A DNA stretch of 64,000 nt from Candidatus Sulfotelmatobacter kueseliae (GTDB lineage: Bacteria; Acidobacteriota; Terriglobia; Terriglobales; Acidobacteriaceae): contig OMOD01000122.1 in the NCBI GenBank assembly GCA_900290255.1, positions 14,314 through 78,313 of the forward strand, in the 5' to 3' direction. Under the pieces are notes generated by a model that saw only the letters and a program-made list of their open reading frames with translations, ran no database searches and was not told where the DNA came from. The position numbers and the translations under genes are program-made. This document shows positions 39,614 to 55,654 of this stretch, piece by piece. The stretch's first letter is position 1; each line of letters begins with the position of its first letter.

Positions 39614-39689
39614 CTAAGCGCACGTGGGAGTCTTTCTGCATGATACCTTCTTGAATCCTCGGCAATACTTAAGCGCCTAAGTATCCTCA

Positions 39690-39705: not shown

Positions 39706-39775
39706 CGCCTAAGTAAAAGTCAAGAACTTTTTTGGTTGATTTCGCCCATTCGGAAGATTAGCTTCTAGATCATCT

Positions 39776-40700: not shown

Positions 40701-40766
40701 GAGAGAGTACTCAGTTGGGAGTAGCTGCACCCACCGCTCCAACAAAACACAGAGGAAACTTGCATT

Positions 40767-41018
40767 ATGGAAGAATTGTTGACCAAAGTGCGGACGGCCT
40801 TTCAATCAGCGTTCAGCATTGATCCGCAGACCGTTACTATTGACACTGTACCAAGCGACGTTCCGGCTTGGGACTCCATGGGACATGTCACGCTGGCTAG
40901 TAGCCTCGAACAAGCCTTCGGCTTGACTTTCGATGTAGACGACCTGATGGCGATGGAGGACGTGAAATCAATCTGCCGGGTCGTACAATCCAAGCTAGGT
41001 CAGGTTCAACGTGCGTAA
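40767..41018 (+). CDS. Acyl carrier protein
   Basis: 83 aa; DVPAWDSMGHVTLASSLEQAFGLTF contains the DSxx attachment motif. Confidence 0.8.
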   Translation: MEELLTKVRTAFQSAFSIDPQTVTIDTVPSDVPAWDSMGHVTLASSLEQAFGLTFDVDDLMAMEDVKSICRVVQSKLGQVQRA

Positions 41019-42507
41019 TGGTATTGAGGGGAACTTCGCGCGCTGTCTGGTTGAGCGTTTGGGAGAAACCTCCTGTTTGATTGACGCGGCAACTGGGCAG
41101 ACCGTTCCTAGTCATGATCTCCCCAATCTGATTGTCGGTTTCGCGGCCGGTCTCCGATCGGCCGGACTGGGGCCGGGTGACAGGATGTTGGTGGGTTGTC
41201 GCGTGAGTCCAGCCAGCACGTTGGCCTACCTCGGCGCCATGTACGCCGGAGTGGTACCCGTGCCGACAGAAGAGCGCCTGCTGTCCGCCTCCGGAGGTTT
41301 CCTGCTAGCTCAGTCGCAAGCTAAAGTCGTATGGACCGACAAAGGGACCAAGTGCGATTGGCTGAAGAGCCATAGCGTCTGTCACATCGAAGGAACTTTC
41401 GAGGCCTGTTCTCCCGACTCGCTCCCGCCGCACCCTTGCGCAGAGAATGATCTCGCCGTCTTGATGCCGACGTCAGGTTCTACAGGCGTGCCTAGGTTGG
41501 TCATGGTCGCTCATAGCAACTTGAAGTCCAATACGGAAGCGATCATTCGCAGCCAACGTCTAGGAACCGATGAAAGGGCCATGCTGATCATGCCGGTGAG
41601 TTATTGCTTCGGCGCCAGCGTGATGCACACTCACCTTTATCAAGGCGGCGGAGTCGTCTTTGATTCTCGGTTCATGTTTCCGGACAAGGTGCTGCACGCC
41701 ATCAACACCTATGGCTGCACGACGTTTGCTGGAGTTCCGGTCATTTACAACGTTTTGCTCCGGCGGTCGAATCTCAAGTCGATCCCCCTGCCTAGTCTGC
41801 GCCGTTTTCTTCAAGCCGGAGGTGCGCTTGCTCCTGAAAATGTGCGGGAGATGCGCCACATCGTACCCACCGCAGAATTTCTGGTCATGTATGGCCAGAC
41901 CGAAGCCACAGCACGGATTTCCTGTCTGCCCAAGGCTCGTTTACAGGAGAAGCTGGGGAGCGCGGGCATTCCACTGGACAATCTTGAGGTCCGCATCGTG
42001 GATGAGGAAGGACGGGAAGTACCGCAGGGGCAGATCGGGGAAATTCAAGTCCGAGGTCCGTCGGTGTGCTTCGGATACCTGGATGATCCCGAATCTACCG
42101 ACCGCAAGTTCGGCGGCGGCTGGCTTAAGACCGGCGATTTTGCCTGTTGCGATAAAGATGGATATCTTTGGATCAAAGGGCGCACGGACGAGTTCATCAA
42201 AATTCGTGGCGTTCGGGTAAGCGTTGGTGAAGTCGAGACCAAGGTGGCGGCCATGCCCGGCGTTAGCGAATGTGCGGCGGTGGCAGTGAAACATCCAGAG
42301 GCCGGTGAAGCCTTGGCGCTACTGATCGTTCCTGACAACAGCGCGACAGAGAGCGCGGTTGCTGAAAATCATGGGGATGACCTCGGCGATCGAATCCGGC
42401 GCGCACTTCCGCCGCACTGGACCTGCGCTTCCGTCAAGATAGTCGCTGAATTGCCGAGAACAACGAATGGCAAGATCGCCCGTTCTCAGTTGCAGACGTT
42501 GTTATGA
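41011..42507 (+). CDS. AMP-dependent synthetase/ligase
   Basis: VLMPTSGSTGVPRLVMVAHSNL, YGQTE, WLKTGDFA, GKIARSQL. GTG start overlaps the ACP stop. Confidence 0.9.
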   Translation: MRNGIEGNFARCLVERLGETSCLIDAATGQTVPSHDLPNLIVGFAAGLRSAGLGPGDRMLVGCRVSPASTLAYLGAMYAGVVPVPTEERLLSASGGFLLAQSQAKVVWTDKGTKCDWLKSHSVCHIEGTFEACSPDSLPPHPCAENDLAVLMPTSGSTGVPRLVMVAHSNLKSNTEAIIRSQRLGTDERAMLIMPVSYCFGASVMHTHLYQGGGVVFDSRFMFPDKVLHAINTYGCTTFAGVPVIYNVLLRRSNLKSIPLPSLRRFLQAGGALAPENVREMRHIVPTAEFLVMYGQTEATARISCLPKARLQEKLGSAGIPLDNLEVRIVDEEGREVPQGQIGEIQVRGPSVCFGYLDDPESTDRKFGGGWLKTGDFACCDKDGYLWIKGRTDEFIKIRGVRVSVGEVETKVAAMPGVSECAAVAVKHPEAGEALALLIVPDNSATESAVAENHGDDLGDRIRRALPPHWTCASVKIVAELPRTTNGKIARSQLQTLL

Positions 42508-43667
42508 GCCAACTGGCAGAGCCTCGGTTAGCAGAACTCGAGCAGGCTGTCGGAGCGTTGCTGGATAAGCCGCCATACGCGGTGCCTCCCAGCGAACGTC
42601 GCGAGGCCTTGCTTGCCCTGTTCAAGCAGGAACTGAGCTACGCCTGCGACCGCAGCCAGCAGTTCCGCAATTACGTGCGGCACTGGCCAATCAGCTTGTC
42701 GGCCGCAGATGCGGTTGCCGATCTTCCATATCTGCCGGTCAGTACGTTCAAGGCCAATCCACCGTTGAGCCTGGTCGAGACCCGCGACATCAAGCGTACT
42801 CTCTCCTCCAGCTCGACCAGTGGCCAGATTCCCAGCCGGGTGGTTCTGGACGCCGCCACAGGCCGGCGGATGACCAGGGGCGTGACGGCGATCATTCGCG
42901 ATTTCATCGGACCGGCGCGCAGGCCCTATCTGGTCATCGATATACCAGAGAACTTGAAACCACAGGTTGAGCTGGGTGCGCGAGGCGCTGCCATTCAAGG
43001 TCTTGGCTCTTTCGCCACGGAAACTGTGTGCTGCTTGCGCCGTGACGATGCAGCAGATTCGGTCCTCGAGCTGGAGAAGCTTCTTGCCTGCGCTGAGAAA
43101 TGGAGAGACAGCGCAGTCTTGGTGTATGGGTTCACGTATGTGATCTGGACCCAGTTCGTGCAGCCCCTGCAGCGCCAAGGCGTCACGCTGCGCATGCCCA
43201 ACGTCCACGTCCTACACAGCGGCGGATGGAAGCGGCTGGAGCAGCAGGCAGTGACGAAAGACGCGTTCATGCGCGGCGTGGCTTCGGTCTTTGCCTGCAG
43301 CGCAGACCGTGTCATCGATTACTACGGTATGGTGGAGAATGTGGGCGTCGTTTATCCAGATTGCGAGCACGGCCACAAGCATGTACCCACGTTCGCGGAG
43401 GTGATCATCCGCGATCCGCTGACACTCGCGCCCGTCGAAGCCGGGCAGCAAGGACTGGTTCAAGTCTGCAGCGTTCTGCCCACGAGTTTTCCCGGATTCC
43501 TGCTGCTGACCGACGACATGGCGGAACTGATCGGTCAGGATGGTTGCCCATGCGGACGGCGCGGCACGTATTTCCGCTTCACGCGGAGGGTGCCAAAGGT
43601 GGAGGTGCGAGGCTGCGGCAATCTGGAAACCACCCGCTCGCGGCAAGGGACAGGTGCGCATGAGTGA
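42504..43667 (+). CDS. LuxE-like acyl-protein synthetase family protein
   Basis: LPYLPVSTFKANPPLSLV, LSSSSTSGQIPSRVVLD, LHSGGWKRLE. The overall layout resembles the LuxE/F390-synthetase-like adenylate-forming family. ATGA overlap with the upstream gene. Confidence 0.7.
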   Translation: MSQLAEPRLAELEQAVGALLDKPPYAVPPSERREALLALFKQELSYACDRSQQFRNYVRHWPISLSAADAVADLPYLPVSTFKANPPLSLVETRDIKRTLSSSSTSGQIPSRVVLDAATGRRMTRGVTAIIRDFIGPARRPYLVIDIPENLKPQVELGARGAAIQGLGSFATETVCCLRRDDAADSVLELEKLLACAEKWRDSAVLVYGFTYVIWTQFVQPLQRQGVTLRMPNVHVLHSGGWKRLEQQAVTKDAFMRGVASVFACSADRVIDYYGMVENVGVVYPDCEHGHKHVPTFAEVIIRDPLTLAPVEAGQQGLVQVCSVLPTSFPGFLLLTDDMAELIGQDGCPCGRRGTYFRFTRRVPKVEVRGCGNLETTRSRQGTGAHE

Positions 43668-44916
43668 TGTGATCCATTCGATTACCTCACCTGAGGAGAT
43701 CAACCGCGCGGCGCGGCAACTGCGGGAAACCGCGCTCGAAGCGGATCTCAGCCCTGACGTGGTGCTTGAAGTTTTCGAGCGGTGGTCTGCTGCCTTGGAT
43801 GCGCCAGGCCTGCGCGACGTTCCTGGTGCGGCCTTTCTCCGTCTCTGGCTCCGGCGCGGCACGTTGCAGCCGATTTTGCTCCGCGAGCTGGGCCCAGAAT
43901 CACTTCATGGTGGATGGCGGGAGGAAGGGCATGCCCGGCTGAAAGCATTTCCTCTGGGAGTAGTCGGTCACTGGCCGGCCGGGAACATTGAGATCCAGCC
44001 CGTCCTGTCTCTCACGTGTGCCTTGCTCGGCGGGAATGGCTGCTTGGTGCGGGTACCGAGCGGGTTGGTCGAGACAACGCGCCTGATCTTGGAAAAGCTG
44101 CTAGAGGTTGATCAGGCGGGTCTATTGACCAAGCGCCTATTCCTAGCCAGCTTCGATCATGCACGCACCGATTTGCACGCGGCCATAGCGCAGACCGTAG
44201 ACGGCGCTATGATCTGGGGTGGTGCCGAGTCAGTCTCGGAGGTGCGAGCGTTGCCCTTTCCTCACTGGGCGCGCGTGGTGGTCTTTGGTCCACGGCTCTC
44301 GGTGGCGGCGATGGATGCGGGCGCATGGGGCTGCCGGAACGAGCGGCCGTCGTGGTGCCGGCGCATCGCACGCGACGTGTGGCAGTTTGAGCAGCAAGCC
44401 TGTTCCTCGCCGCAGACGTTGTTTCTCGAGCGCGGCGACGACTGCGATCCCGGCGAGTTTGTCGAAGATCTGAAGTGCGCTTTTCAGGAGGAGAACCGAG
44501 CACATCCGCGGCGGGAAATCGAACCGGCGTTGACCTCGGCAATCTGCCAGGCCCGCGCGTCCTGGCTCTTAGATGATGCCGCGAATCGTGCGTGGTTTCC
44601 CGGGTCGCCCGATTGGACGATCTTACTAGGGAAAGGAGTGGACATACCTGAGCCGACGCAAGGCCGAACGCTCAGCGTGCTGGTCGCGGAGGACCTTATG
44701 GAGGTGGTCTCGCGATTCGATGGGACCGTGCAGACGCTGGGGTTGGCGATCAAGGACGCGGCGCGGGAGGAAACGCTAGCTGCGGCTGCAGGACGTCACG
44801 GAGTGGACAGGGTGGTGCGGCTTGGCCAGATGCATGTTTTCGGCTCCCCGTGGGACGGGGTAGATTTGGTGCGGCCGATGGTGCGTCTGGTTCGGCATGT
44901 GTGTTCGCAGGATTAG
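43660..44916 (+). CDS. LuxC-like acyl-CoA/acyl-ACP reductase family protein
   Basis: ORF 43540..44916; ATG 43660 overlaps the upstream stop by 8 nt. FPLGVVGHWPAGNIEIQPVLSLTCALLGGNGCLVRVPSG and EQQACSSPQTLFL resemble the LuxC (aldehyde-dehydrogenase-like) family. Confidence 0.7.
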   Translation: MSDVIHSITSPEEINRAARQLRETALEADLSPDVVLEVFERWSAALDAPGLRDVPGAAFLRLWLRRGTLQPILLRELGPESLHGGWREEGHARLKAFPLGVVGHWPAGNIEIQPVLSLTCALLGGNGCLVRVPSGLVETTRLILEKLLEVDQAGLLTKRLFLASFDHARTDLHAAIAQTVDGAMIWGGAESVSEVRALPFPHWARVVVFGPRLSVAAMDAGAWGCRNERPSWCRRIARDVWQFEQQACSSPQTLFLERGDDCDPGEFVEDLKCAFQEENRAHPRREIEPALTSAICQARASWLLDDAANRAWFPGSPDWTILLGKGVDIPEPTQGRTLSVLVAEDLMEVVSRFDGTVQTLGLAIKDAAREETLAAAAGRHGVDRVVRLGQMHVFGSPWDGVDLVRPMVRLVRHVCSQD

Positions 44917-44940
44917 AGCTGGAGTGGGAGAGAAGTCCAG

Positions 44941-45840
44941 ATGAATCATGCAGAACTTTTCCTGGAAGCCTTGGATCGAAAGGCCAAGATCTTTGCCCCC
45001 AATGCCCGCGCCACATTCGAAGCCAACCGGGAGCTGTGCTCGTGGTTGCTGAGTCCGCTGGCACGGTGGGCTGAGGCAGCTTACGGGAGCAACGTATTTG
45101 ACGAGGCCGCACGCGGCTACGCCGAATATTGCTTCGGCGTGGCCAAGGCCAAGCAGGTTTACGAACGCGCCGGCAGATACACTCCCGAAGCCATGCCGGA
45201 AATCATGTCCGGGGTCTATGAGCATGAGGGCTACATGATTCCGTACATGTGGGCAGCAATTCTCATCTATCCGTTTTGGCCGTCGATGGTCAGCCATATT
45301 GCGCTATTCCGCGACGAGTTCGTGCGGCGGTTACCCCGAAATGCCAGTGTGCTCGAGCTGGCCTGTGGCCATGGCGTGTTAAGTCTTCTGGCTGCCGAGG
45401 AGCGCCCGGACATTCAGGTCGAAGGTACCGATATCAGCGCACCCGCCGTGGCCGTAGCCAATCGCCTGCTGGCTGTTTCCCGACACGCGGGCCGCGTTCG
45501 CTTCGCAGTCCAGGACGCACTGCAACCCGACAACCAAGGCGGGAACGGAAAATGCCAGGGCGTGATCTCCGCCATGCTGGCCGAGCACCTGATGGATCCA
45601 AAGCCGCTGTTTGCGACGATGGGGCGGCGCGTCGCGCCGGAAGGACTGGTATTCTTCAGTACAGCTCTGGAGTCGCCGCAGCGGGACCACGTGTTTGAAT
45701 ACAACCACGAGAGCCAGCCTCTGCAGATGGCCGAGATTGCTGGGCTGCGGGTGACCCGGCTCGTATCCGATGCCAGTGCAATACCCACCGGATCACGCTT
45801 CCTGCCCCGGGCCACGGCCATGATTCTGAAGTCTCGCTGA
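44941..45840 (+). CDS. Class I SAM-dependent methyltransferase
   Basis: VLELACGHGVLSLL (motif I), DISAPAV, a Rossmann-type layout. Confidence 0.75.
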   Translation: MNHAELFLEALDRKAKIFAPNARATFEANRELCSWLLSPLARWAEAAYGSNVFDEAARGYAEYCFGVAKAKQVYERAGRYTPEAMPEIMSGVYEHEGYMIPYMWAAILIYPFWPSMVSHIALFRDEFVRRLPRNASVLELACGHGVLSLLAAEERPDIQVEGTDISAPAVAVANRLLAVSRHAGRVRFAVQDALQPDNQGGNGKCQGVISAMLAEHLMDPKPLFATMGRRVAPEGLVFFSTALESPQRDHVFEYNHESQPLQMAEIAGLRVTRLVSDASAIPTGSRFLPRATAMILKSR

Positions 45841-47200: not shown

Positions 47201-47232
47201 GTGCTGTCGGCAGATAACACCCTGCGCTGCCG

Positions 47233-47575: not shown

Positions 47576-50500
47576 CTAGTCATCAAAGTTAAGGCACCAC
47601 TCTCCATCCAAACGTGATAGGCTGGCGTCCCCTCGAACTAGGAGTTCCAGAAGTTCGGGCTTGCGAGAGTGCGCGATTGTCCAGCCACCGCGGCCGCATG
47701 TGAAGAAACAATTTTTCTGCGATAAGGCGTCCATCAAGTGGATTGGAGCAGTCCCGTGGAGGCCGACCGCGCCTTGACTCCAGGCATCGTAGAAAAGATG
47801 GTCAAGAATGTCCTTGCCGAACCGGCTCTCACCACCGATCTGCACCGCTTGGGCCACATCGCCAATCTTCGGATAGTAGATATACCAGCCAACGACCTTC
47901 TGACGGTCATCACGAAGAACAATCTTCCGCAGTTCTGACCGGGGGTGCATCCGCTCCATGAACGTCAAGAGCCATTTCAGCGAATCGACTTCATAATCAG
48001 GCAGAATTGAATGGTCACTGCGGAATTTCGCTAAACAGTGAAGAAGCACTTCAACGTCTAGCTCTGCGGCCTGCAGATGAGACGGGATCGGACGTAAGGG
48101 GCTGAAGGGAAGTCTTGCACCGATGGCGTCCACGACGCTACAAAAGGGTCTTGCGGCAATCCTAAGGCTGGCGGAGAGCGTGGGCCCCGCTAACTTGGAC
48201 ATGGCGTGGGCAGCGTAATTCGTCAGCCGCAAGGGGCGTGCCCAGTGCATGCTCAAGGGCATAATAGTCCTGAAGCCCATTCGTTCCAGCAGACTCCTAG
48301 ATATATCGTTTGCTGAATCCGTCAACGAAATGTCCTGCTCTCCTGCCATGTACGCCGTCAGCAGACGCAAGCCAGCCAGCGAGGACCGCGCCTCCGGAGC
48401 AACCACAAAATTGCCACCAACGGCGATGCAAAGCGGCCGTCCGCGGAGAGACATTTTCCGTCGGACTACACCTAGGAAGCCTACAATTCTGCCGTTCTTG
48501 CCTTCATAAACACGGGAAGGCGTTCTCTCGTCGATCAAAGGACTCCTGAAATAAAGCTCCTCAAAATATGAGTGGAGTCCGGACGGAGGAGCGCCCTTGC
48601 CGTAACGCAGGAATTTCCACCACAGGTCCGCTACCTGCGGGATATCGTCGACAGCAAACGGGCGCAGACCCGGATCTTTCCGCGCCAACCCTAGCGAAGG
48701 CCCATCTTCCGCCTTCATACCCCGCCCGAGAACACTCGCCAGTTTTCGTGGGGTAGGGGCATCGTAAAGAGCCGCGAGCGGCGGGGTGCATCCTAACTCG
48801 CTTTGGATCAAGGCGAACAACTGCGCCGCAGCCACGGAGTGGCCGCCTAAAGCAAAAAAGTCGTCGTCTGGCCCAATCTCGCTGCCATTCAACACACGCT
48901 GCCAAAGCGGGATCAAGGATTGGACTAACGTGGCCTCCGACATCCCGGAGATGGTCGGCGTATCCGAGAATTGCTGTGGCGCCCCGGGTGTCGAGCCCAA
49001 AGCCGGCGACACGGATTGCCGCGTCATTTCTCGGTTTGGAATGCGTTTGTAAACGATCTCAGTGGCGGAAGCAGTCTCGCTCCACTTGAGCCGGGCTAGC
49101 TGCGTTACTTTCCGTGAAGGATCGGCCGCCAGCTCTTCAAAGATGGAGCCTAGCGTCACCAGCCATTCTCGTACGGTAAGATCCGCAAAGAGCTTGATGT
49201 CATAGTGGCAGTGCAACGCCAGGTTTTCTTCTGCCTCCACCACATTCAGATAAAGCTCGAACGATTCGAAAGCCTTGGGGTTGGCCTCGTAGTCGACGGC
49301 AAATCCGAATTGCGGTAACTCGTTTTGCTTGAACTTCTTGATGTTGGTAAGTCCAACCGAGATCGGGGAAATGCCAGGCGTAGGCGCAGCCGGGTGGAGA
49401 TCTTCCATCAAGCTCACCATTGTAAAGATGGCGTGCTCGTGAGCGGCGAGAAGATCGGCTTGTACGCGCTTTAGGAAAGCCTCCGCTGCTTCGCCTTCGC
49501 GTAACTCCACGGCAAAGGGAAGAAGGTTGACGCAGTGTCCGACGAGACCAGGCTGTCCGATAGACGGTTGTTCCGCAGTGGGCAGAGTGATCACAAAGCG
49601 ATGCTGCCGCGAGATGCGGGCTAGCAGAATGGCCAGAGAACTGAGCAGGACCGCGAAGAAGCTGCAGTTATGTTCGGCTCCCAGCGCTCTGAGATCGCGC
49701 ACTACCGAGGCTGAAATCGAGTGATCGAGACGGCGGGCGTTGAATTCACGCCGCGCACTCCGCGGGTGGTCTGTCGGAAGCACGAGCACGGGGAAACCAT
49801 CATGGAATTTCGCGTGCCAATAGTTGCCCGCTTGCTTGAATTCTGCGGAGCGCTCCCGCTCCGTTGTGTTCTTCACGTAATCGCCGTAACTGTCTGCGAG
49901 CTCTAGGTGCACAGGCGCACCTGAGAGTTCTTCCGAATAGAAGGCGCAGAGATCGTGGATCAGGACATCCAGCGACCAGCCATCGCAAATAATGTGGTGT
50001 GCCGTGATGATGACCGCAGCACGCTCGGCACCGAGCAAAACCATTTGGCAGCGGAACAGAGGGCCTGCGGGCAGAGGGAACGGCAATGCTGTTTCATCGG
50101 CAATCAGTTTGCGGAAACGTTGCTCTTGCCAGTCCGGTTCGTTGGCCGGAACCTGCATTGAGAGATCAGTCACCGGCATCGCGATCTTCAGGGCCGGGGC
50201 GATCTTCATCATCCTGCCAGTTTCGTCGAAACTGGTGCGTAGGGCGTCATGTCGTTCCACCAGACGTTCCATGGCGCCCATCATTTTCGCGACTGAGATC
50301 TTGCCGGTGAATCGCAGCGTCATGGATTCGTTGTAAGACGCCGACAAGCGCTCGGACAAACGCGAGGACGAGAAAATACCCCGCTGCGGAACCGTAGCTT
50401 CGATATCGCGTGGACTGGAACGCACGATGGCGGGCTTCGAACCATCTGTCGATAATTTCTGGACCACCGGCGTCTCATCTTCCGCGGCTATGCGATTTCC

Positions 50501-53500
50501 ACCGCCTTTCTCGAGAAGCGCAACCAGCCGGGCGATCGTGCGCGCTTGCTCGACAACCGCTTCTTCGAGCGTGCTGCCCTTGGACTGGATACTTGGCTGA
50601 GCATTCGTCCGGACGTCCGCAAGAGAGTTTGCGGTCGGAATAGGAGTGGCTTCGGCGAGAGCCTCGGCAGGCAGGGTCGAATCAAGATGCGCCGCCAACA
50701 TGTCAATGTTGGGGAACTGCTTCATGAGCTGACTGAAGCTGACCTTCACGGAGAACTCCTTTTGGACAGCGAAGGCGACCTGGGTTAACGACAGCGAGTC
50801 GAATCCCTGCTCCATGAACGTAGCGGAAGTGTCAATTTGCGAACGTTCGCGTCCGGAGACAGGTAAGAGCAGATCAATCACGCGCGCAGCGATGCGGTCC
50901 TTGCGCGAGCCTGCCCCGCGTCCCGACGTAACGGCCTCTGTGAGTGCAGACGGGAGAGCAGACGGCGCCACGGAGGGCTCGGTTGATGGCTCAACTCGGA
51001 CGCCAGCCGCCGCACTCGAACTCCTGTTCTCGGGATTTTGCGCAGTGGACGCCTCGGCGGGATCCACCCAGAACCGCTGCCGCTCAAACGGGTAGGTCGG
51101 CAATGGTATGCGATGACGCTCTTCGTTAGTGTAAAAGCCTTCCCACTCAATGGACACGCCATTCTGCCAGAGGGACCCCAGGGCAAAAAGCAGAGTAGCC
51201 CACTCGGTGTTGTTCTCCGCCGTGTCGGCAAACGTCGGGATCGCGGTACAAGGATGATCGGGCGTAAAGTGCTGGCGGGCCAATGCACACATTGTGGAAC
51301 GTGGTCCGCATTCCAGGAAAAAGTCGTGTCCTTGCTCCTTAAGGCATAGGATGGCTTTTGAAAACTCCACTGTAGCCCGAGCATGATTGGCCCAATACGC
51401 GGGATTGCTGGTCTCGGCGGCGGTAATGGAGCGTCCTGTTACCGTCGAGACAAAGGGCTTGGCCGGAGCACGCAAGCGGATTTTGGCAACGGCCTGGCGC
51501 AACGGCTCGATCATGGGATCCATCATCGCGGAGTGGAAGGCATGTGAGGTGTGCAGTTGGCGGCAGACAAAGTTTTCGGCCTCGAGTTGCTTCCGGAATT
51601 GCGCAATATTCTCTTCCGGCCCCGACACCACGCATAGAGCGGGAGCATTGTTGGACGCAAGCTGAAGTCCAGGCGGAAGAATCTTTGCAACCGATTCCGC
51701 GCTGCTGCTCACGGCCATCATGGAGCCACGCGGCAGTTCCTGCATCAAGCGTCCCCGCAGAGCGACAACGCTGAGTGCATCCTCGAGATCCCACACCCCG
51801 GCGAGCGTGGCAGCGACAAACTCTCCGATGCTATGTCCCGCCATCAGGGCAGGCTCGACGCCGAGGCTTTGCCAGAAGCGCGCCAGCGCGTATTCGATGA
51901 CAAAAATCGACGGCTGTGTGAAGAACGTGTCCCGCAATGATATCTGAGCCGTCTCTTCGTCTCCGCTCTGGGGATAAAGAAGTTCGCGCAAATCCCGGCC
52001 GAGATGCGGTTTAAGGCACTCGCAACAATCGTCAACGACTGCGCGAAAAAGCGGCTCGTCACGATAGAGGTTCAATCCCATGTTGACGTACTGCGTGCCC
52101 TGACCGCCGAAAAGGAAAACGATGGGTGGATCGCGACGCTCGCAGCGTTTGCTCCCGCAGCGTAACGGATTCGGTTGCAAGAGCAGCTTGGCGGCATCGC
52201 CGGAATCGGCGGCTACCACGAATCGCCGCTGCGCCAGCTGTTTGCGCCCGGTTTGGAAGGTGTAGGCCACATCGGCCAGATCTTCCGGTGCGCTCGCGAG
52301 ATGCTCGGCCAACGCCCGGCTGTAGGCATCAAGGGCTGCTGGACTCTTGGCTGAGAGCGGCAAGAGTTGCAGTGGGCGCGAAGGCCGCCCGCTCTTTGCC
52401 ACCGGCGCTTCTTCCAGGATGACGTGGACATTCGTCCCGCCAAAGCCAAACGAGCTGACCGCTGTGCGACGCACTCCCTTTCCACGAGGAAACGGGATGA
52501 GCTTGTCGGCCATGAGGAACGGGCTGCCACCGAAATCGATCTTGGGATTGGGTGTCTTGAAATGCAGGGTCGGAGGAATTTGCTCGCGATGGAGAACGAG
52601 GGCCGCTTTGATCAGGCCTGCAACTCCAGCGGCATTGGTGGGATGCCCGATGTTTCCTTTGATGGATCCGATATAACAGAAGTTCTTCTTGTCGGTCTTG
52701 TTCTCAAAAACTCTTCGCAGAGCTTCGAATTCAATCGGATCGCCGACCGGGGTGCCCGTACCGTGCGCCTCGATGTAGCCGATAGTCTCGACCGGGACGT
52801 TAGCATTTGCCTGCGCCAGGGCAATGGCCTCCGCTTGGCCGTCCACGCTCGGGGCCAGAAAAGAAGCGGGGCGGGCACCGTTGTTGTTCTTGCCGGTGCC
52901 GCGAATGACGGCATAAATGGTGTCGCCATCGGCTAGAGCTTCGGCATACCGCTTGAGGACGACCACGCCGGCGCCGTCGCAGAACATGGTTCCGGTAGCG
53001 TCAGCATCAAAAGGACGGCAGTGGCCATCTTTGGAGAACGTGCCTCCCTGCTGATATAGGAATCCGCTCCTCTGCGGCACCGTGATGTCGATGCCGCCCG
53101 AGAGTGCGATGTCACATTCGTAGTCGAGCAGTGAGTGGTAGGCTTCGTCGATAGTCAGGAGCGTAGTCGAACAGGCTGTATTGAGGCTGACCGCGGGTCC
53201 GCGAAGGTCCAGCAGATAAGCGGTGCGCAGGGCGATGTAGTCTTTTTGGTTGCCGTACTCAACGGCCAGCTTGCCGGCCATGGCCAACAAATCCGGTTGC
53301 GTCAAGAGGTTCGTGGTGTAGTAGTGATTGTCACCGATACCCGCGAACACTCCAATGCGCCCTTTATAGCGCTCGGGGTCGTACCCGGCGTTTTCCAGCG
53401 CCTGCTGCGCCAGTTCGAGAAAGATCCGCTGCTGCGGGTCCATGACCTTGGCTTCAAGCGGATTGATGCCAAAGAACGCGGCATCGAAGAGATCCGCGCC

Positions 53501-55654
53501 CTCGATCAAGCCGCGGGCCCGGATGTAATCGGGATCGCGGCGCAGATGGGGATCGATGCCAGGTCCCAGTTCTTCGGGTGTGAAAAAAGAGATCGATTCG
53601 ACGGCATTGCAGAGGTTGCGCCACAGCTGATCGAGATTGGCCGCTCCCGGGAAGCGGCCCGTCATACCGATCACCGCGACACCTTCCCGCAGAAGCCCGT
53701 CCTCGGTGGCCGGATTTCGTTCTGACTTGGGCTGCGGATTCCGCCGATGCCGCGCCCGCTCTTCAGCTTCGGCAACCAGATCGGACTTGCTCTCACTCTC
53801 TTCTAGGAACTCTGCGAGCTTCGCGATCGTGGGATACTGAAAGACCTTGACGGGAGGAATCTCGCGCCCAAAGCGCGTGTGATACTGATTCACCATACGG
53901 ACCGCTGCCAGCGAATTGCCGCCGAGATCGAAGAAGCTGTCATCAATTCCAACCTCTTCGAGTTGCAGCAGCTCGCACCAGAGACTTGCCAGTTGCCTTT
54001 CGGCTGCTGTGCGCGGAGCGATAAATTCCTGGGCGAGCAGCGGCCGTTTGCCCTCGGGCCGGGGCAGGGCTTTGCGATCAATCTTGGCGTTCGGAGTCAG
54101 AGGGAATTTCTCCAGACGCACGAAAACGGAAGGGATCATGTAGTCGGGAAGCGTAGTTTTGAGGAACTGAACGAGAGAGGTGGAACTCAGACCTTCGCGG
54201 CCCGTGTAATAGGCGGCTAGGCGTTTCTCTCCCGGACGGTCCTCGCGTAGGATCACGACGGCCTGGGCGATTCCTTCAACTTTGGCCAGCGAGCTTTCGA
54301 TCTCGCCCAGTTCGATGCGAAAGCCGTGGAGCTTCACCTGGTTGTCGAGACGCCCCAGAAATTCCAGTGAACCGTCGGGCCGATAGCGGACTTGGTCACC
54401 AGTACGGTAGAGCCGCTCACCCCGTCCCTCGCGGGTGGGATCGAGGACAAACCGTTCAGCCGTCCACTCGGGGGGGTTGAGATACCCACGAGCCAAACCC
54501 GCACCGCCAATCCAGAGCTCGCCGGGAGTCCCTTGGGAAACCGGTTTGTGGTTTTCATCGAGCAGGTGGAATTGCGTGTTGGCAATGGGTGTGCCGAGCG
54601 AGACCAGGTCGGGTGAGGTCACGCGCTCAGTCGAGGACCAGATCGTGGTCTCCGTCGGCCCATACATGTTCCAGAGTTCGCGGCAGCGAGGCAGCAATTG
54701 CCGAGCGATGTCCGCGGTCAGAGCCTCTCCCCCGCAAAAGACTCGCAGGTCACTCTTTCCTTCCCAGCCGTTTTCGAGAAGCATGCGCCAGGTCGCCGGC
54801 GTCGCCTGCATCACGGTGATCGCGTGTTGATGTAGCAGCGTCTGGAGTTCACGGGCGTCCGCAGCCTGTTCCGCAGTGGCGAGAACAATCTCGGCGCCGC
54901 AGACCAGCGGGAGCAGGAATTCCAGGAGCGAGATGTCAAAGGAACTCGTCGTGACCGCCAGGAGCCGATCGGAAGAAGCTATGCCCGGTGTTTCCGCCAT
55001 CGACAGCAAGAAATTGACCAGTGCCCGGCGCTGGATCATGACCCCCTTGGGTTTTCCCGTCGAGCCCGAAGTGTAAATCAGATAGGCGAGATGTTCGGGC
55101 TTTCCAGATGAGGCGAGGTTGGTCGCCGGCAGCCCGGCGATCGACTGATTCTCGACGTCGAGTGAAATAACTCGCGCAGCAGTTTCCGGCAGGCTCCCCC
55201 GCTTGGAAGAATGTGTCAGGAGAAGAGGGACTGCGGAGTCCGCCAGCATGAACGCCAGACGGTCGTTCGGAAACTTCGGATCCAGGGGCAGGTAAGTTCC
55301 GCCGGACTTGAGGATGGCAAAAAGGCTCACAACGGAAGCGAACGAACGGTCAAGATACACACCCACCACGCTCTCAGGACCGACTCCTTGCTGGCGAAGG
55401 AAGTGTGCTAGGCGGTTTGAGCGGGAATTCAGCTCCCGGTAGGAAATTCGTTCTGCACCCAGGGAGAGCGCGGGAGCGTCAGGCGTACGCTCGGCTTGCT
55501 CCTCAATCAGCTCGTGCGGGCCTCGCCGCAGGGGCGCAAAAGTTCTTGCGACACCACGAGTCAGTTTCCCGTGACCCGGGCCACTAGTCTTGGAGGGCGC
55601 TGTCGAACCACCATCCCGGACTGCAATTTCTTCGACATCACTGCGTAACTTCAT
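47576..55654 (-). CDS. Hybrid NRPS-PKS megasynthase, domain order A-T-KS-AT-T-C-T-(GNAT-like), 2692 aa
   Basis: Single uninterrupted ORF. The core motifs of every domain were located by eye (see the domain sub-features). Confidence 0.95.
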   Translation of the reverse strand: MKLRSDVEEIAVRDGGSTAPSKTSGPGHGKLTRGVARTFAPLRRGPHELIEEQAERTPDAPALSLGAERISYRELNSRSNRLAHFLRQQGVGPESVVGVYLDRSFASVVSLFAILKSGGTYLPLDPKFPNDRLAFMLADSAVPLLLTHSSKRGSLPETAARVISLDVENQSIAGLPATNLASSGKPEHLAYLIYTSGSTGKPKGVMIQRRALVNFLLSMAETPGIASSDRLLAVTTSSFDISLLEFLLPLVCGAEIVLATAEQAADARELQTLLHQHAITVMQATPATWRMLLENGWEGKSDLRVFCGGEALTADIARQLLPRCRELWNMYGPTETTIWSSTERVTSPDLVSLGTPIANTQFHLLDENHKPVSQGTPGELWIGGAGLARGYLNPPEWTAERFVLDPTREGRGERLYRTGDQVRYRPDGSLEFLGRLDNQVKLHGFRIELGEIESSLAKVEGIAQAVVILREDRPGEKRLAAYYTGREGLSSTSLVQFLKTTLPDYMIPSVFVRLEKFPLTPNAKIDRKALPRPEGKRPLLAQEFIAPRTAAERQLASLWCELLQLEEVGIDDSFFDLGGNSLAAVRMVNQYHTRFGREIPPVKVFQYPTIAKLAEFLEESESKSDLVAEAEERARHRRNPQPKSERNPATEDGLLREGVAVIGMTGRFPGAANLDQLWRNLCNAVESISFFTPEELGPGIDPHLRRDPDYIRARGLIEGADLFDAAFFGINPLEAKVMDPQQRIFLELAQQALENAGYDPERYKGRIGVFAGIGDNHYYTTNLLTQPDLLAMAGKLAVEYGNQKDYIALRTAYLLDLRGPAVSLNTACSTTLLTIDEAYHSLLDYECDIALSGGIDITVPQRSGFLYQQGGTFSKDGHCRPFDADATGTMFCDGAGVVVLKRYAEALADGDTIYAVIRGTGKNNNGARPASFLAPSVDGQAEAIALAQANANVPVETIGYIEAHGTGTPVGDPIEFEALRRVFENKTDKKNFCYIGSIKGNIGHPTNAAGVAGLIKAALVLHREQIPPTLHFKTPNPKIDFGGSPFLMADKLIPFPRGKGVRRTAVSSFGFGGTNVHVILEEAPVAKSGRPSRPLQLLPLSAKSPAALDAYSRALAEHLASAPEDLADVAYTFQTGRKQLAQRRFVVAADSGDAAKLLLQPNPLRCGSKRCERRDPPIVFLFGGQGTQYVNMGLNLYRDEPLFRAVVDDCCECLKPHLGRDLRELLYPQSGDEETAQISLRDTFFTQPSIFVIEYALARFWQSLGVEPALMAGHSIGEFVAATLAGVWDLEDALSVVALRGRLMQELPRGSMMAVSSSAESVAKILPPGLQLASNNAPALCVVSGPEENIAQFRKQLEAENFVCRQLHTSHAFHSAMMDPMIEPLRQAVAKIRLRAPAKPFVSTVTGRSITAAETSNPAYWANHARATVEFSKAILCLKEQGHDFFLECGPRSTMCALARQHFTPDHPCTAIPTFADTAENNTEWATLLFALGSLWQNGVSIEWEGFYTNEERHRIPLPTYPFERQRFWVDPAEASTAQNPENRSSSAAAGVRVEPSTEPSVAPSALPSALTEAVTSGRGAGSRKDRIAARVIDLLLPVSGRERSQIDTSATFMEQGFDSLSLTQVAFAVQKEFSVKVSFSQLMKQFPNIDMLAAHLDSTLPAEALAEATPIPTANSLADVRTNAQPSIQSKGSTLEEAVVEQARTIARLVALLEKGGGNRIAAEDETPVVQKLSTDGSKPAIVRSSPRDIEATVPQRGIFSSSRLSERLSASYNESMTLRFTGKISVAKMMGAMERLVERHDALRTSFDETGRMMKIAPALKIAMPVTDLSMQVPANEPDWQEQRFRKLIADETALPFPLPAGPLFRCQMVLLGAERAAVIITAHHIICDGWSLDVLIHDLCAFYSEELSGAPVHLELADSYGDYVKNTTERERSAEFKQAGNYWHAKFHDGFPVLVLPTDHPRSARREFNARRLDHSISASVVRDLRALGAEHNCSFFAVLLSSLAILLARISRQHRFVITLPTAEQPSIGQPGLVGHCVNLLPFAVELREGEAAEAFLKRVQADLLAAHEHAIFTMVSLMEDLHPAAPTPGISPISVGLTNIKKFKQNELPQFGFAVDYEANPKAFESFELYLNVVEAEENLALHCHYDIKLFADLTVREWLVTLGSIFEELAADPSRKVTQLARLKWSETASATEIVYKRIPNREMTRQSVSPALGSTPGAPQQFSDTPTISGMSEATLVQSLIPLWQRVLNGSEIGPDDDFFALGGHSVAAAQLFALIQSELGCTPPLAALYDAPTPRKLASVLGRGMKAEDGPSLGLARKDPGLRPFAVDDIPQVADLWWKFLRYGKGAPPSGLHSYFEELYFRSPLIDERTPSRVYEGKNGRIVGFLGVVRRKMSLRGRPLCIAVGGNFVVAPEARSSLAGLRLLTAYMAGEQDISLTDSANDISRSLLERMGFRTIMPLSMHWARPLRLTNYAAHAMSKLAGPTLSASLRIAARPFCSVVDAIGARLPFSPLRPIPSHLQAAELDVEVLLHCLAKFRSDHSILPDYEVDSLKWLLTFMERMHPRSELRKIVLRDDRQKVVGWYIYYPKIGDVAQAVQIGGESRFGKDILDHLFYDAWSQGAVGLHGTAPIHLMDALSQKNCFFTCGRGGWTIAHSRKPELLELLVRGDASLSRLDGEWCLNFDD
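47579..48682 (-). other. C-terminal ~370-aa tandem GNAT-like domain (paralogue of 25976-27310); not a TE or R domain
   Basis: No GxSxG or Rossmann motif. FVVAPEARSSLAGLRLL resembles GNAT motif A. Collinear similarity to the stand-alone 444-aa protein. Confidence 0.55.
48731..48943 (-). other. Peptidyl carrier domain T3 (Ser2273), no cognate A domain in cis
   Basis: DDFFALGGHSVAAAQL. Confidence 0.8.
49100..50413 (-). other. NRPS condensation domain
   Basis: HHIICDGWS (HHxxxDG at residues 1886-1892), preceded by ATVPQRGIFSSSRL and followed by YGDYV and LPTDHPR. Confidence 0.8.
50675..50902 (-). other. PKS-type acyl carrier domain T2 (Ser1620)
   Basis: FMEQGFDSLSLTQVAF. Confidence 0.8.
51215..52126 (-). 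other. Acyltransferase domain (Ser1275), malonyl-type HAFH motif
   Basis: FLFGGQGTQY, MAGHSIGEFVAA, LHTSHAFHSAMM. Confidence 0.85.
52409..53686 (-). other. Ketosynthase domain (Cys828, His964, His1004)
   Basis: VAVIGMTGRFPGA, SLNTACSTTLLTI, IEAHGTGTPVGDPIE, GSIKGNIGHPTNAAG, SSFGFGGTNVHVILEE. Confidence 0.9.
53801..54013 (-). other. Peptidyl carrier domain T1 (Ser581)
   Basis: DDSFFDLGGNSLAAVRM. Confidence 0.85.
54050..55522 (-). other. NRPS adenylation domain (residues ~45-535), predicted glycine-specific
   Basis: LAYLIYTSGSTGKPKGV, SSFDISLLE, NMYGPTETT, GELWIGGAGLARGY, YRTGD, PNAKIDR. Hand-extracted 10-residue code: D-I-L-Q-F-G-M-I-W-K. Confidence 0.85.

What the first reader, a model, noticed from the sequence alone, without database searches (positions are those of the whole stretch)
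40767..45840. ACP / acyl-AMP ligase / LuxE-like / LuxC-like / methyltransferase cassette inside a glycan locus
Five genes have overlapping stop/start codons (41011/41018, 42504/42507, 43660/43667). They encode a carrier protein, two different adenylate-forming enzymes, a LuxC-type acyl-thioester reductase (aldehyde-forming in the lux system) and a SAM methyltransferase.

LuxC/LuxE are best known from bioluminescence fatty-aldehyde recycling. As far as I recall, LuxC/LuxE-like proteins together with an ACP and an acyl-CoA-ligase-like protein also occur in the Vibrio cholerae O1 rfb region, where they are implicated in making the tetronate N-acyl group of perosamine.

By analogy, this cassette may build a reduced and/or methylated short acyl substituent, or an aldehyde for reductive coupling, for the glycan or for the NRPS-PKS product. 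The substrate and product are unknown.
Basis: partly seen in the sequence, partly recalled or inferred. Interest (0 to 1): 0.65.

Follow-up and report, generated by a model that had tools for sequence, protein, structure and literature searches.

The report
Carrier-protein acyl-tailoring cassette with LuxE/LuxC
Five tightly packed genes in a peat acidobacterium form a widely conserved but never tested enzyme set that most likely reduces and methylates a small acid, loads it on a carrier protein and passes it to an acyltransferase that decorates a surface sugar polymer or lipopeptide-like product.

Summary
ORFs at 40767-45840 (+) encode an ACP, an ANL-type AMP-ligase, a LuxE-family acyl-protein synthetase, a LuxC-family thioester reductase and a class I SAM methyltransferase. 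Three junctions overlap; the methyltransferase follows after 24 nt.

The unit is not a chance neighbourhood. The same gene order recurs in about 120 loci from Acidobacteriota and at least five other lineages. Catalytic residues are invariant: ACP Ser37, LuxE Cys371, LuxC Cys248. Neighbouring genes are fused in some lineages (ligase-LuxE, LuxE-LuxC, LuxC-MT).

The cassette as reported is incomplete:
- A FabZ-like dehydratase follows the MT in nearly all acidobacterial loci. Here it sits 14 kb away, at 59897-60376.
- An acyltransferase lies nearby in 41 of 52 well-flanked loci. It is a tandem GNAT in this clade and a PglD-like hexapeptide enzyme elsewhere. Here the tandem GNAT is fused to the C-terminus of the neighbouring PKS-NRPS.

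Best reading: a carrier-protein "acyl-donor factory" of the V. cholerae rfbKLMNO / flagellin-glycosylation-island kind. The methyltransferase-bearing variant appears undescribed in the literature I searched. Substrate, product and acceptor remain unknown.

Verdict: new variant of a known but biochemically untested kind, of moderate interest.

The parts
40767..41018 (+). Stand-alone acyl carrier protein (83 aa), phosphopantetheine site Ser37 in WDSMG
   Evidence: Pfam PP-binding 27.8 bits. Ser37 invariant in 43/43 homologues.
41011..42507 (+). ANL-superfamily AMP-ligase (498 aa, GTG start), presumed ACP loader for a non-amino carboxylic acid
   Evidence: AMP-binding plus AMP-binding_C. No NCBIfam equivalog cut-off reached. 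Best PDB matches are feruloyl/fatty-acyl-CoA synthetase, the LgrA A domain and malonyl-CoA synthetase. The A4 position reads SYCFGAS rather than FDxS, so no Asp for an alpha-amino group; the core YCFGAS is kept in 43 of 44 homologues, with minor variation at three positions.
42504..43667 (+). LuxE-family acyl-protein synthetase (387 aa) with C-terminal swinging Cys371
   Evidence: PF04443 196.8 bits. Aligns to 7xc6_E over residues 36-372. Lys243 (GGWK), Arg361/362 and Cys371 match Lys238, Arg354/355 and Cys364 of P. phosphoreum LuxE. Cys371 is conserved in 44/46.
43660..44916 (+). LuxC-family acyl-thioester reductase (418 aa), active-site Cys248
   Evidence: PF05893 194.3 bits. Aligns to 7xc6_A over residues 66-415, and Cys248 in QQACSS matches the chain's QQAC Cys. 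Cys248 is invariant in 44/44. Peat metatranscriptome contigs match 43725-44157 and 44662-44930.
44941..45840 (+). Class I SAM methyltransferase (299 aa) with a helical N-terminal cap of about 128 aa; the best conserved gene of the unit
   Evidence: Pfam Methyltransf_23/25/31/12/11. The ELACGHG SAM motif is conserved. AF2 model pLDDT 73.7. Foldseek neighbours are small-molecule natural-product MTs, TM about 0.5. Fused to LuxC in L056 and P0363. Narrow family: 35 representatives at E<=1e-30.
59897..60376 (+). FabZ-like 3-hydroxyacyl-ACP dehydratase, the displaced sixth gene of the acidobacterial unit
   Evidence: 77% identical to the gene that directly follows the MT in 35/35 acidobacterial genome loci with room. 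Pfam FabA 82 bits. PDB FabZ 8ayd E=7e-32.
47576..48694 (-). Tandem-GNAT acyltransferase domain (residues about 2325-2692) fused to the C-terminus of the PKS-NRPS
   Evidence: 46-66% identical to free-standing proteins of about 364 aa encoded beside the cassette, in 1-3 copies. Weak Pfam GNAT hits. AF2 model pLDDT 84.5. Foldseek top matches are N-myristoyltransferases, E=3e-13, TM 0.55. An RNA contig matches 47843-48086.
47576..55654 (-). 2692-aa hybrid megasynthase: FAAL-ACP-KS-AT-ACP-C-PCP-tandem GNAT, with no A domain after the C domain
   Evidence: Pfam domain map. The same ORF is present in independent assemblies. Orthologous PKS lies next to the cassette in L025 and L030.
31989..32765 (-). 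SDR (FabG-like); only a candidate partner
   Evidence: Pfam adh_short_C2. Its 79% orthologue lies next to the ACP gene, on the opposite strand, in L025. A different SDR directly precedes the ACP in the class B flavour and follows the MT in L043 and L045.

Best explanation
The five genes are the core of a self-contained, carrier-protein-centred factory for a tailored acyl donor.

Proposed steps:
1. LuxE uses ATP to adenylate a carboxyl group and takes the acyl group onto its own C-terminal Cys371.
2. LuxE hands the acyl group to Cys248 of LuxC, which reduces the thioester with NAD(P)H to an aldehyde.
3. The methyltransferase, physically coupled to LuxC, methylates that product or its enol, hydrate or alcohol.
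4. The ANL ligase puts the other carboxyl of the same small non-amino acid onto the dedicated ACP. A C3-C5 dicarboxylic or hydroxy acid is my guess.
5. FabZ-like, and in some lineages an SDR, do further beta-carbon processing on the ACP.
6. An acyltransferase moves the finished acyl group from the ACP to an amine on a surface glycan or a lipid/peptide product. It is a tandem GNAT in this clade, here fused to the end of the PKS-NRPS, and a PglD-like hexapeptide enzyme in other lineages.

Shown: the families, the catalytic residues, the conserved order, the fusions and the acyltransferase co-occurrence.

Inferred: the order of steps, whether LuxE acts on the free acid or on the ACP-bound half-acid, the identity and size of the acid, O- versus C-methylation, and the acceptor.
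For: - Families and catalytic residues.
- Gene order kept across Acidobacteriota, Fibrobacteraceae, Ferrigenium, Magnetococcales, Pelobacteraceae, Eoetvoesiella and Eisenbacteria.
- Tight or overlapping junctions across 75-104 loci.
- Fusions of neighbouring genes. Ligase-LuxE as ORFs of 861-876 aa in three lineages. LuxE-LuxC in L040. LuxC-MT in L056 and P0363. A ligase-LuxE fusion fits two adenylating enzymes working on one molecule.
- LuxE keeps its own swinging-arm Cys. The ACP is therefore not needed for LuxE-to-LuxC transfer and is free to serve the ligase.
- The ligase lacks the A-domain Asp that binds an alpha-amino group.
- An acyltransferase lies nearby in 41 of 52 well-flanked loci. 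Tandem GNAT in 27/33 of this clade; hexapeptide enzyme in 10/16 and 3/3 of the other two classes.
- Context in other lineages: DegT aminotransferase, PglD-like enzyme and GT41 in Ferrigenium; a Wzx/GT/pyruvyltransferase operon in L120.
- Precedents: V. cholerae RfbK/RfbL with 2,4-dihydroxybutanoate, and flagellin islands of Aeromonas, Enterobacteriaceae and Dickeya.
[quoted passage not shown] By my own arithmetic these fit a C4H6O3 (dihydroxybutanoyl) group.
Against: - There is no chemical or genetic evidence for any step.
- Two Fibrobacteraceae loci lack the ligase, with the ACP directly before LuxE. That fits LuxE loading the ACP.
- Six of 33 loci of this clade show no tandem GNAT within 10 kb.
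- The MT role is unresolved. Sequence and fold neighbours include O-, C- and N-methyltransferases at low similarity.
- Ligase similarity does not discriminate short from long acids; the best NCBIfam hit is a long-chain ligase subfamily, below its cut-off.
- The tandem GNAT's best fold match is a fatty-acyl (myristoyl) transferase.
- In the window the FabZ-like gene is 14 kb away and the only tandem GNAT is part of another protein.
Confidence: 0.5

Rival explanations
1. Lux-like lipid reading. LuxE/LuxC turn a long-chain fatty acid into a fatty aldehyde, and the ligase/ACP/FabZ handle a fatty acyl chain. The product would be an envelope lipid or lipo-amino compound, made with the N-myristoyltransferase-like tandem GNAT and the FAAL-PKS genes, rather than a short glycan substituent.
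For: - LuxC/LuxE are characterised only with myristate.
- The tandem GNAT's best fold match is N-myristoyltransferase.
- The ligase's best NCBIfam hit is a long-chain fatty-acid ligase subfamily.
- FabZ-like, FAAL-ACP, P450 and C-domain genes recur in this clade.
- The flagellin-island papers speculate about a 'liposugar'.
Against: - NCBIfam LuxE and LuxC equivalogs score 76.5 and 69.5 bits against cut-offs of 550 and 750.
- No luxD, luxAB or other fatty-acid supply gene was found.
- In six non-acidobacterial loci and in class B loci the partners are PglD-like N-acyltransferases, sugar aminotransferases, GTs and Wzx, with no lipid genes.
- The only product tied to such a module by a proposed pathway is the C4 acid of V. 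cholerae O1.
- The Foldseek TM of 0.55 shows a shared fold, not a shared substrate.
Confidence: 0.2
2. Aldehyde-release reading. LuxE is the enzyme that loads the ACP, and LuxC is an acyl-ACP reductase that releases a free aldehyde, which is methylated. That aldehyde is the product, used for example for reductive coupling or transamination. The acyltransferases nearby would do unrelated acetylations.
For: - The Fibrobacteraceae loci are ACP-LuxE-LuxC-MT without a ligase.
- LuxC-type enzymes can reduce acyl-CoA/ACP thioesters without LuxE.
- The LuxC-MT fusions put the MT right after aldehyde formation.
- DegT aminotransferases are adjacent in 3 of 6 non-acidobacterial loci.
Against: - LuxE keeps the C-terminal Cys and Arg pair that serve direct self-acylation and hand-over to LuxC, in 44/46 sequences.
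- A second adenylating enzyme is present in nearly all loci and is even fused to LuxE. It would have no role in this reading.
- Acyltransferase co-occurrence is high and switches type with clade.
Confidence: 0.15
3. PKS-NRPS feeder reading, specific to this window. The cassette supplies the unit that the A-domain-less C-PCP end of the 2692-aa megasynthase condenses with its beta-keto-acyl chain. The ligase may also load that PCP in trans. The fused tandem GNAT would then release or cap the chain.
For: - The megasynthase ends C-PCP-tandem GNAT with no A domain.
- The GNAT domain is the orthologue of the cassette's usual free-standing neighbour.
- Cassette, GNAT and orthologous PKS are neighbours in the window, L025 and L030.
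- RNA contigs match both LuxC and the GNAT tail.
Against: - Most loci with the cassette have no PKS; KS-AT appears in 1 of 37 acidobacterial genome loci.
- The fusion appears confined to this lineage. The 120 best of 562 homologues are 320-426 aa.
- The ligase is paired with its own ACP everywhere.
Confidence: 0.1

Closest known systems
Vibrio cholerae O1 rfbK-rfbO (wbeK-O) tetronate module
   Same: It contains an ACP (RfbK), an AMP-ligase (RfbL), LuxE/LuxC-like reductase functions (RfbN) and an acyltransferase (RfbO). It is proposed to make and attach a short reduced hydroxy-acyl group, 2,4-dihydroxybutanoyl, to an amino sugar (gene roles of RfbM-O from my memory of Morona et al. 1995, Gene 166:19). 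The LuxE-LuxC fusion seen in L040 mirrors RfbN.
   Different: The window has no iron alcohol dehydrogenase, no hexapeptide acyltransferase and no perosamine genes. It adds a dedicated methyltransferase and a FabZ-like dehydratase, and the acyltransferase is a tandem GNAT. I could not compare sequences with RfbK-O. The V. cholerae pathway is itself only a sequence-based proposal.
ACP-FabG-AMP ligase-LuxE-LuxC units of flagellin glycosylation islands (Aeromonas group II, Enterobacteriaceae, Dickeya zeae)
   Same: Same four core families in the same order, inside glycan loci and next to an aminotransferase and a hexapeptide acetyltransferase. Function is untested. The plasmid examples from Ponticoccus and Rhizobium are of this kind.
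   Different: Those units carry FabG rather than the conserved cap-bearing methyltransferase. Dickeya has an unrelated FkbM-type MT. They have no FabZ-like gene and no tandem GNAT, and they are tied to flagellin and pse genes, which are absent here. LuxE identity to the plasmid examples is only 33-35%.
LuxCDE fatty acid reductase of luminous bacteria (structure 7xc6)
   Same: LuxE and LuxC are homologous over nearly their full length. They keep the adenylation Lys/Arg, the swinging C-terminal Cys of LuxE and the active-site Cys of LuxC. The acid to acyl-AMP to acyl-Cys(LuxE) to acyl-Cys(LuxC) to aldehyde relay probably works the same way.
   Different: These are not orthologues: 76.5 and 69.5 bits against equivalog cut-offs of 550 and 750. 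There is no luxD or luxAB. LuxC is about 40 residues shorter at the N-terminus in the alignment. The unit is coupled to an ACP, a second ligase and a methyltransferase.
N-myristoyltransferase-type tandem GNAT acyltransferases
   Same: The partner protein or domain is predicted to have two GNAT-like halves in one chain, like NMT.
   Different: Sequence identity is only 10-13%, TM about 0.55 and rmsd about 7 Å. There was no sequence hit in the PDB. The donor is probably a carrier-protein thioester, not CoA, and the acceptor is unknown.

Membership tests
LuxE (Pfam PF04443, acyl-protein synthetase) | Profile match above the curated cut-off over most of the model | tested here: met
   196.8 bits against a cut-off of 24.9; profile positions 22-384 of 391.
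LuxE (Pfam PF04443, acyl-protein synthetase) | Adenylation Lys/Arg pair and acylated Cys in a short C-terminal motif that replaces the ANL C-terminal subdomain | tested here: met
   Lys243, Arg361/362 and Cys371 align with Lys238, Arg354/355 and Cys364 of 7xc6_E. The Cys is conserved in 44/46 homologues.
Bioluminescence LuxE/LuxC orthologues (NCBIfam NF052244 / NF052251 equivalogs) | Score above the equivalog cut-off | tested here: not met
   76.5 bits against 550, and 69.5 bits against 750.
Bioluminescence lux operon | luxA/luxB luciferase and luxD thioesterase alongside luxC/luxE | tested here: not met
   No luciferase-like or LuxD-like family was found among the 40 larger ORFs of the window that I scanned with Pfam.
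LuxC (Pfam PF05893, acyl-thioester reductase) | Profile match above the cut-off and a conserved active-site Cys | tested here: met
   194.3 bits against a cut-off of 21. Cys248 aligns with the QQAC Cys of 7xc6_A and is invariant in 44/44.
LuxC (Pfam PF05893, acyl-thioester reductase) | NAD(P)H-dependent reduction of an acyl thioester to an aldehyde | not testable with these tools
   Needs an enzyme assay.
V. cholerae rfbKLMNO-type N-acyl donor module | ACP, AMP-ligase and LuxE/LuxC-like functions encoded together | tested here: met
V. cholerae rfbKLMNO-type N-acyl donor module | Alcohol dehydrogenase (RfbM) that takes the aldehyde to the alcohol | tested here: not met
   No Fe-ADH in the window. 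The only nearby SDR is at 31989-32765 on the other strand. An SDR is adjacent in other flavours.
V. cholerae rfbKLMNO-type N-acyl donor module | Hexapeptide (LbH) acyltransferase and an amino-sugar pathway next to it | tested here: not met
   None in the window. Present in relatives: PglD-like in 6/6 non-acidobacterial loci and 10/16 class B loci. Here a tandem GNAT takes that place.
V. cholerae rfbKLMNO-type N-acyl donor module | Sequence orthology to RfbK-RfbO | not tested
   No V. cholerae sequences were at hand in the collections I could query by protein.
Flagellin glycosylation island ACP-FabG-ligase-LuxE-LuxC unit | Location between flagellin/pse genes, with FabG inside the unit | tested here: not met
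   No flagellar or pse genes and no in-unit FabG in the window. The comparison rests on the descriptions.
BioC-type malonyl-ACP O-methyltransferase | Score above the TIGR02072 cut-off | tested here: not met
   29.9 bits against 184.95.
Exosortase-A-associated acyl-CoA ligase (TIGR03098) | Score above the cut-off | tested here: not met
   243.9 bits against 592.35.

The most novel reading that the evidence does not exclude
Ligase, LuxE, LuxC and MT form one multi-enzyme line around the ACP that works on both ends of a single small di-acid. It would make a methylated aldehyde- or enol-ether-type acyl cap not yet seen on bacterial surface polymers.

In this lineage the cassette's usual acyltransferase has been captured as the terminal domain of a FAAL-PKS-NRPS. 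That would create a new chain-release or capping step, in which a tandem GNAT replaces a thioesterase or reductase. Such a step could join a lipopeptide-like chain, the cassette product and possibly the exopolysaccharide.
Probability: 0.12. Interest if true: 0.8.

Novelty: new variant of a known kind. Interest (0 to 1): 0.55.

Why it matters
LuxC/LuxE homologues next to an ACP and a ligase have sat untested in glycan loci since the 1995 proposal for the tetronate group of the V. cholerae O1 antigen. They also recur in flagellin glycosylation islands.

This variant is a compact set of 5-7 genes with no recognisable membrane components. It is very well conserved (70-90% identity) in Sulfotelmatobacter-like acidobacteria and also occurs in at least five other lineages. 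That makes it a good system in which to find out what these modules make.

The fusions (ligase-LuxE, LuxE-LuxC, LuxC-MT) and the clade-dependent acyltransferase partner give concrete, testable predictions. The product would be an uncharacterised decoration of acidobacterial surface polymers or lipids in peat.

The PKS-NRPS that ends in a tandem GNAT is an unusual termination architecture and worth a look in its own right.

Tried and rejected
- **Rfam scan of 32000-64000:** no RNA family.
- **Sigma-70 promoter and terminator scans of 39000-47700:** no more sites than in shuffled sequence, so they say nothing about the transcription unit.
- **PDB sequence search with the tandem GNAT:** no hit.
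- **PDB and Foldseek searches with the MT:** only generic small-molecule methyltransferases, mixing O-, C- and N-MTs at TM about 0.5. The methylation type cannot be called.
- **Ligase specificity from NCBIfam and PDB neighbours:** not diagnostic.
- **Literature:** no open paper tests any LuxE/LuxC-ACP-ligase module in a glycan locus. The auricin paper mentions lux only as a reporter.
- **BioC-like, exosortase-A ligase and true lux operon membership:** all rejected on score or missing partners.
- **Amino-acid substrate for the ligase:** rejected because the A4 Asp is absent.
- **Adjacency by chance:** rejected by synteny and the fusions.
- **Metatranscriptome evidence:** a few low-depth contigs only. 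It shows presence of RNA at best, not co-transcription.

Full report
**Source and setting**

The window matches a peat metagenome contig (JGI Ga0311301_10001570, 87.8 kb). The same five genes are found, residue-identical where covered, on six further contigs from independent assemblies. They also occur in peat DNA runs. The closest genome bins are Acidobacteriota: Candidatus Sulfotelmatobacter, Acidoferrales and 'Acidobacteriaceae' MAGs, with LuxE 66-78% identical.

Pfam annotation of the larger ORFs gives this layout:
- 1042-31864 (+): a long polysaccharide operon. It encodes an initiating sugar transferase, GT2 and GT4 enzymes, WbsX, a Wzx-type flippase, UDP-GlcNAc 2-epimerase, a deacetylase, FemAB-like, and amino-acid-type enzymes.
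- Next: an SDR (31989-32765, -), a lipocalin and a P450.
- Next: rmlD-rmlC-rmlA and a truncated rmlB, on the minus strand.
- 40767-45840 (+): the cassette.
- 46127-47200: an ORF without Pfam hits.
- 47576-55654 (-): a 2692-aa FAAL-ACP-KS-AT-ACP-C-PCP-GNAT megasynthase.
- Then a LamG/VanZ protein, small ORFs, a FabZ-like gene, UDP-glucose dehydrogenase and a MOSC protein.

**1. The observation**

All five ORFs exist at the stated coordinates, and their families are confirmed above Pfam gathering scores. They are PP-binding, AMP-binding with AMP-binding_C, LuxE (PF04443, 196.8 bits), LuxC (PF05893, 194.3 bits) and class I SAM methyltransferase domains.

The three stop/start overlaps are real. 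The methyltransferase is not overlapped; it starts 24 nt after the LuxC stop. LuxC most likely starts at 43660, as its homologues do, although the frame is open from 43540.

**2. The two Lux-like proteins keep the lux chemistry but are not lux orthologues**

Both align over nearly their full length with the solved P. phosphoreum LuxC-LuxE complex 7xc6. The paper on that structure (PMC9157457) assigns:
- adenylation and thioesterification to Lys238/Arg355 of LuxE;
- self-acylation to Cys364, in a flexible C-terminal motif;
- hand-over to the active-site Cys of LuxC.

The window proteins keep Lys243 (GGWK), Arg361/362 and Cys371 in LuxE, and Cys248 (QQAC) in LuxC. Across about 45 homologues taken from the fetched loci, LuxC Cys248 is invariant (44/44), LuxE Cys371 is nearly so (44/46), and ACP Ser37 is invariant (43/43).

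The NCBIfam equivalogs for bioluminescence LuxE and LuxC are far from met: 76.5 bits against 550, and 69.5 against 750. There is no luxAB or luxD in the window. The relay acid to acyl-AMP to Cys(LuxE) to Cys(LuxC) to aldehyde is therefore a reasonable inference. The fatty-acid substrate is not.

**3. The ligase and the methyltransferase**

The ligase is a generic ANL enzyme, and no curated family cut-off is reached. Its PDB neighbours range from feruloyl/fatty-acyl-CoA synthetase to an NRPS A domain and malonyl-CoA synthetase. In the alignment with the LgrA A domains, the A4 'FDxS' Asp that binds an alpha-amino group is replaced. The motif reads SYCFGAS, and its core YCFGAS is kept in 43 of 44 homologues, including those from other phyla. 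This argues for one shared substrate that is not an amino acid.

The methyltransferase is the best conserved gene of the unit: 75-85% identical within the clade and 53-59% across phyla. It has a helical N-terminal cap of about 128 residues. It belongs to a narrow family, with only 35 cluster representatives at E<=1e-30 among 1.84 billion. Its sequence and fold neighbours are small-molecule natural-product methyltransferases of mixed O-, C- and N-specificity at low similarity. I cannot say what atom it methylates.

**4. Comparative genomics: the unit is real, larger than five genes, and comes in flavours**

A genome scan with LuxE gave 43 loci, and a metagenome scan with an MT alignment gave 80 more. 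tblastn synteny maps show the order ACP-ligase-LuxE-LuxC-MT everywhere. The only exception is two Fibrobacteraceae loci that lack the ligase. Three flavours appear.

- **Class A, the window's clade (MT at least 74% identical).**
  - A FabZ-like gene follows the MT in 35 of 35 genome loci with room. It matches PDB FabZ at E=7e-32.
  - A protein of about 364 aa lies within 10 kb in 27 of 33 well-flanked loci, in one to three copies.
  - FAAL-ACP, a P450 and a stand-alone C-domain protein accompany it in about 10 of 37 loci.
- **Class B, other acidobacteria-like soil and peat contigs (55-65% identity).**
  - The order is SDR-ACP-ligase-LuxE-LuxC-MT-FabZ. There is no 364-aa protein, but often a PglD-like hexapeptide protein next to the SDR.
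  - In L120 the unit sits inside a textbook Wzx-dependent operon: GT4, GT2, MT, LbH-like, SDR, cassette, FabZ, hexapeptide acyltransferase, GT2, pyruvyl transferase, MT and flippase.
- **Class C, six loci from Ferrigenium, Magnetococcales, Pelobacteraceae, Eoetvoesiella and Fibrobacteraceae.**
  - All six have a PglD-like hexapeptide N-acyltransferase.
  - A DegT sugar aminotransferase is present in three, an SDR after the MT in two, plus further MTs and a TPR-GT41 protein. None has FabZ or the tandem GNAT.

Overall, 41 of 52 loci with at least 4 kb on both sides have one of the two acyltransferase types nearby.

**5. The 364-aa partner and the link to the PKS-NRPS**

The C-terminal 365 or so residues of the window's megasynthase are 46-66% identical to those free-standing 364-aa proteins. 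Pfam sees only a weak N-terminal GNAT, and the PDB holds no sequence relative. An AlphaFold model (pLDDT 84.5, pTM 0.83) has two GNAT-like halves. It best matches N-myristoyltransferases (E=3e-13, TM about 0.55), which indicates a tandem-GNAT acyltransferase fold.

The 120 best of 562 homologues are 320-426 aa long. The fusion behind C-PCP therefore seems special to this lineage. It is reproducible across assemblies.

There is no A domain after the C domain. The window has no other copy of this GNAT. In L025 and L030 the orthologous PKS (71-85% identical) lies a few kb beyond cassette-FabZ-GNAT. In the window, the stretch from the unknown ORF through the inverted PKS-NRPS and LamG/VanZ lies between the MT and the FabZ-like gene at 59897-60376. 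The locus has therefore been rearranged.

**6. Fusions**

Every adjacent enzyme pair is fused somewhere:
- Ligase-LuxE occurs as ORFs of 861-876 aa in three lineages that differ by 16-22% in DNA (L081, L124/L127, L126).
- LuxE-LuxC occurs as a 765-aa ORF in L040. This is a long-read MAG, so an indel artefact is possible.
- LuxC-MT occurs in L056, where I verified a continuous ORF. It occurs independently in P0363, whose MT is only 51% identical.

Together with the overlapping junctions, this points to a physical complex. A fusion of the two adenylating enzymes is most simply explained if both act on the same molecule, one at each carboxyl.

**7. What is known**

A 2025 paper cites it as saying that RfbL activates 2,4-dihydroxybutanoate and attaches it to CoA or to the ACP RfbK.
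- *Flagellin islands.* ACP-FabG-AMP ligase-LuxE-LuxC units have been noted, untested, in Aeromonas and Enterobacteriaceae. [quoted passage not shown]
- *Annotated plasmids.* Ponticoccus and Rhizobium plasmids carry similar sets; the Rhizobium locus also includes FabZ and a class I MT nearby.
- *A lead.* The Aeromonas AH-3 glycan contains a 376.14 Da pseudaminic acid derivative and an unknown 102 Da moiety. By my arithmetic, 316.13 - 42.01 + 102.03 = 376.15, so both fit a C4H6O3 acyl group such as dihydroxybutanoyl. I did not test this.
- *The gap.* I found no paper that describes the methyltransferase-bearing five-gene unit, its FabZ or tandem-GNAT partners, or any biochemical test.

**8. Mechanism**

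My best reading (confidence 0.5) is an acyl-donor factory:
1. LuxE and LuxC reduce one carboxyl of a small non-amino acid to an aldehyde.
2. The MT, coupled to LuxC, methylates that end.
3. The ligase loads the other carboxyl on the ACP.
4. FabZ-like and SDR tailor the beta-carbon where they are present.
5. The acyltransferase passes the acyl group to an amine.

Shown are the families, catalytic residues, synteny, fusions and acyltransferase co-occurrence. Inferred are the order of steps, the acid, the type of methylation and the acceptor.

Three observations cut against this reading. The ligase-less Fibrobacteraceae loci fit a rival in which LuxE loads the ACP and LuxC releases a free aldehyde. 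The NMT-like fold and the recurrent FAAL/P450/C-domain neighbours keep a lipid reading alive. In this window specifically, the product may feed or cap the PKS-NRPS chain.

**9. Expression**

A few short contigs from two peat metatranscriptomes match LuxC (43725-44157, 44662-44930) and the GNAT tail (47843-48086), all 99-100% alike by the tool's likeness count. This is weak evidence that the genes are transcribed in situ.

**10. Verdict**

The feature is a new, methyltransferase-bearing and widely conserved variant of a known, biochemically untested kind of module. In this lineage it has an unusual tie to a PKS-NRPS. Interest is moderate (0.55). It is not categorically new, but it gives a 30-year-old open question a compact test system.

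Noticed in passing
window 39032-39487 (-) and 39488-40766: rmlB is only its C-terminal half; it starts near '[13 protein letters not shown]', and the Rossmann N-terminal half is missing in all frames. About 1.3 kb without a convincing ORF follows, up to the cassette. A metatranscriptome contig matches 39787-40028. This looks like a rearrangement breakpoint just upstream of the cassette.
   Followed up: partly
window 45841-59896: In related loci the FabZ-like gene directly follows the MT. Here an ORF without Pfam hits (46127-47200, Gly/Tyr-rich repeats, seen only in this contig lineage), the inverted PKS-NRPS, LamG/VanZ (56571-57719) and several small ORFs lie in between.
   Followed up: partly
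window 25976-29310: A second, simpler carrier set lies at the end of the glycan operon. It comprises a 444-aa protein weakly similar to the N-terminal GNAT of the tandem GNAT (pairwise E=6e-4), a 90-aa ACP (27350-27622, DSMG motif) and another AMP-ligase (27679-29310). FAD monooxygenases lie upstream (22259-23497) and directly downstream (29313-30563). It may be a parallel GNAT/ACP/ligase acylation module.
   Followed up: partly
window 1042-3919 and 23537-25924: The glycan operon carries amino-acid-pathway-type genes: an ATP-grasp enzyme, an aspartate kinase with an ACT domain, a Cys/Met-metabolism PLP enzyme and a homoserine O-succinyltransferase. These hint at an aspartate- or homoserine-derived substituent on the polymer.
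   Followed up: no
window 47576-55654 (-): The megasynthase has no KR, DH, ER, TE or reductase domain. It has a C domain followed by a PCP without an A domain, and it ends in a tandem GNAT. This is an unusual termination architecture.
   Followed up: partly
L056 11032-13317; P0363; L081 6075-8705; L124 1688-4312; L126 6118-8703; L127 6072-8696; L040 10122-12419: These are natural fusions of neighbouring cassette genes: LuxC-MT twice independently, ligase-LuxE in three lineages, and LuxE-LuxC once. The last is in a long-read MAG and may be an indel artefact.
   Followed up: yes
L038 and L047 (LuxC region): LuxC appears interrupted or partly missing in these two long-read MAG loci. This may be a frameshift error or a real pseudogene; I did not resolve it.
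   Followed up: no
L055 5368-6774 and L056 4939-6552: A PF04185 phosphoesterase gene (phospholipase C / acid phosphatase family) lies upstream of the tandem GNAT, on the opposite strand, in two class A loci. In other class A loci a response regulator and a GAF/TonB_C protein take that place (L050, L052).
   Followed up: no
P0466 (656 aa): A distant relative of the MT (31% identical, including part of the helical cap) is fused behind what looks, from its N-terminal sequence, like a radical-SAM domain; I did not run a family search on it. The cap-bearing MT family therefore has other partners too.
   Followed up: no
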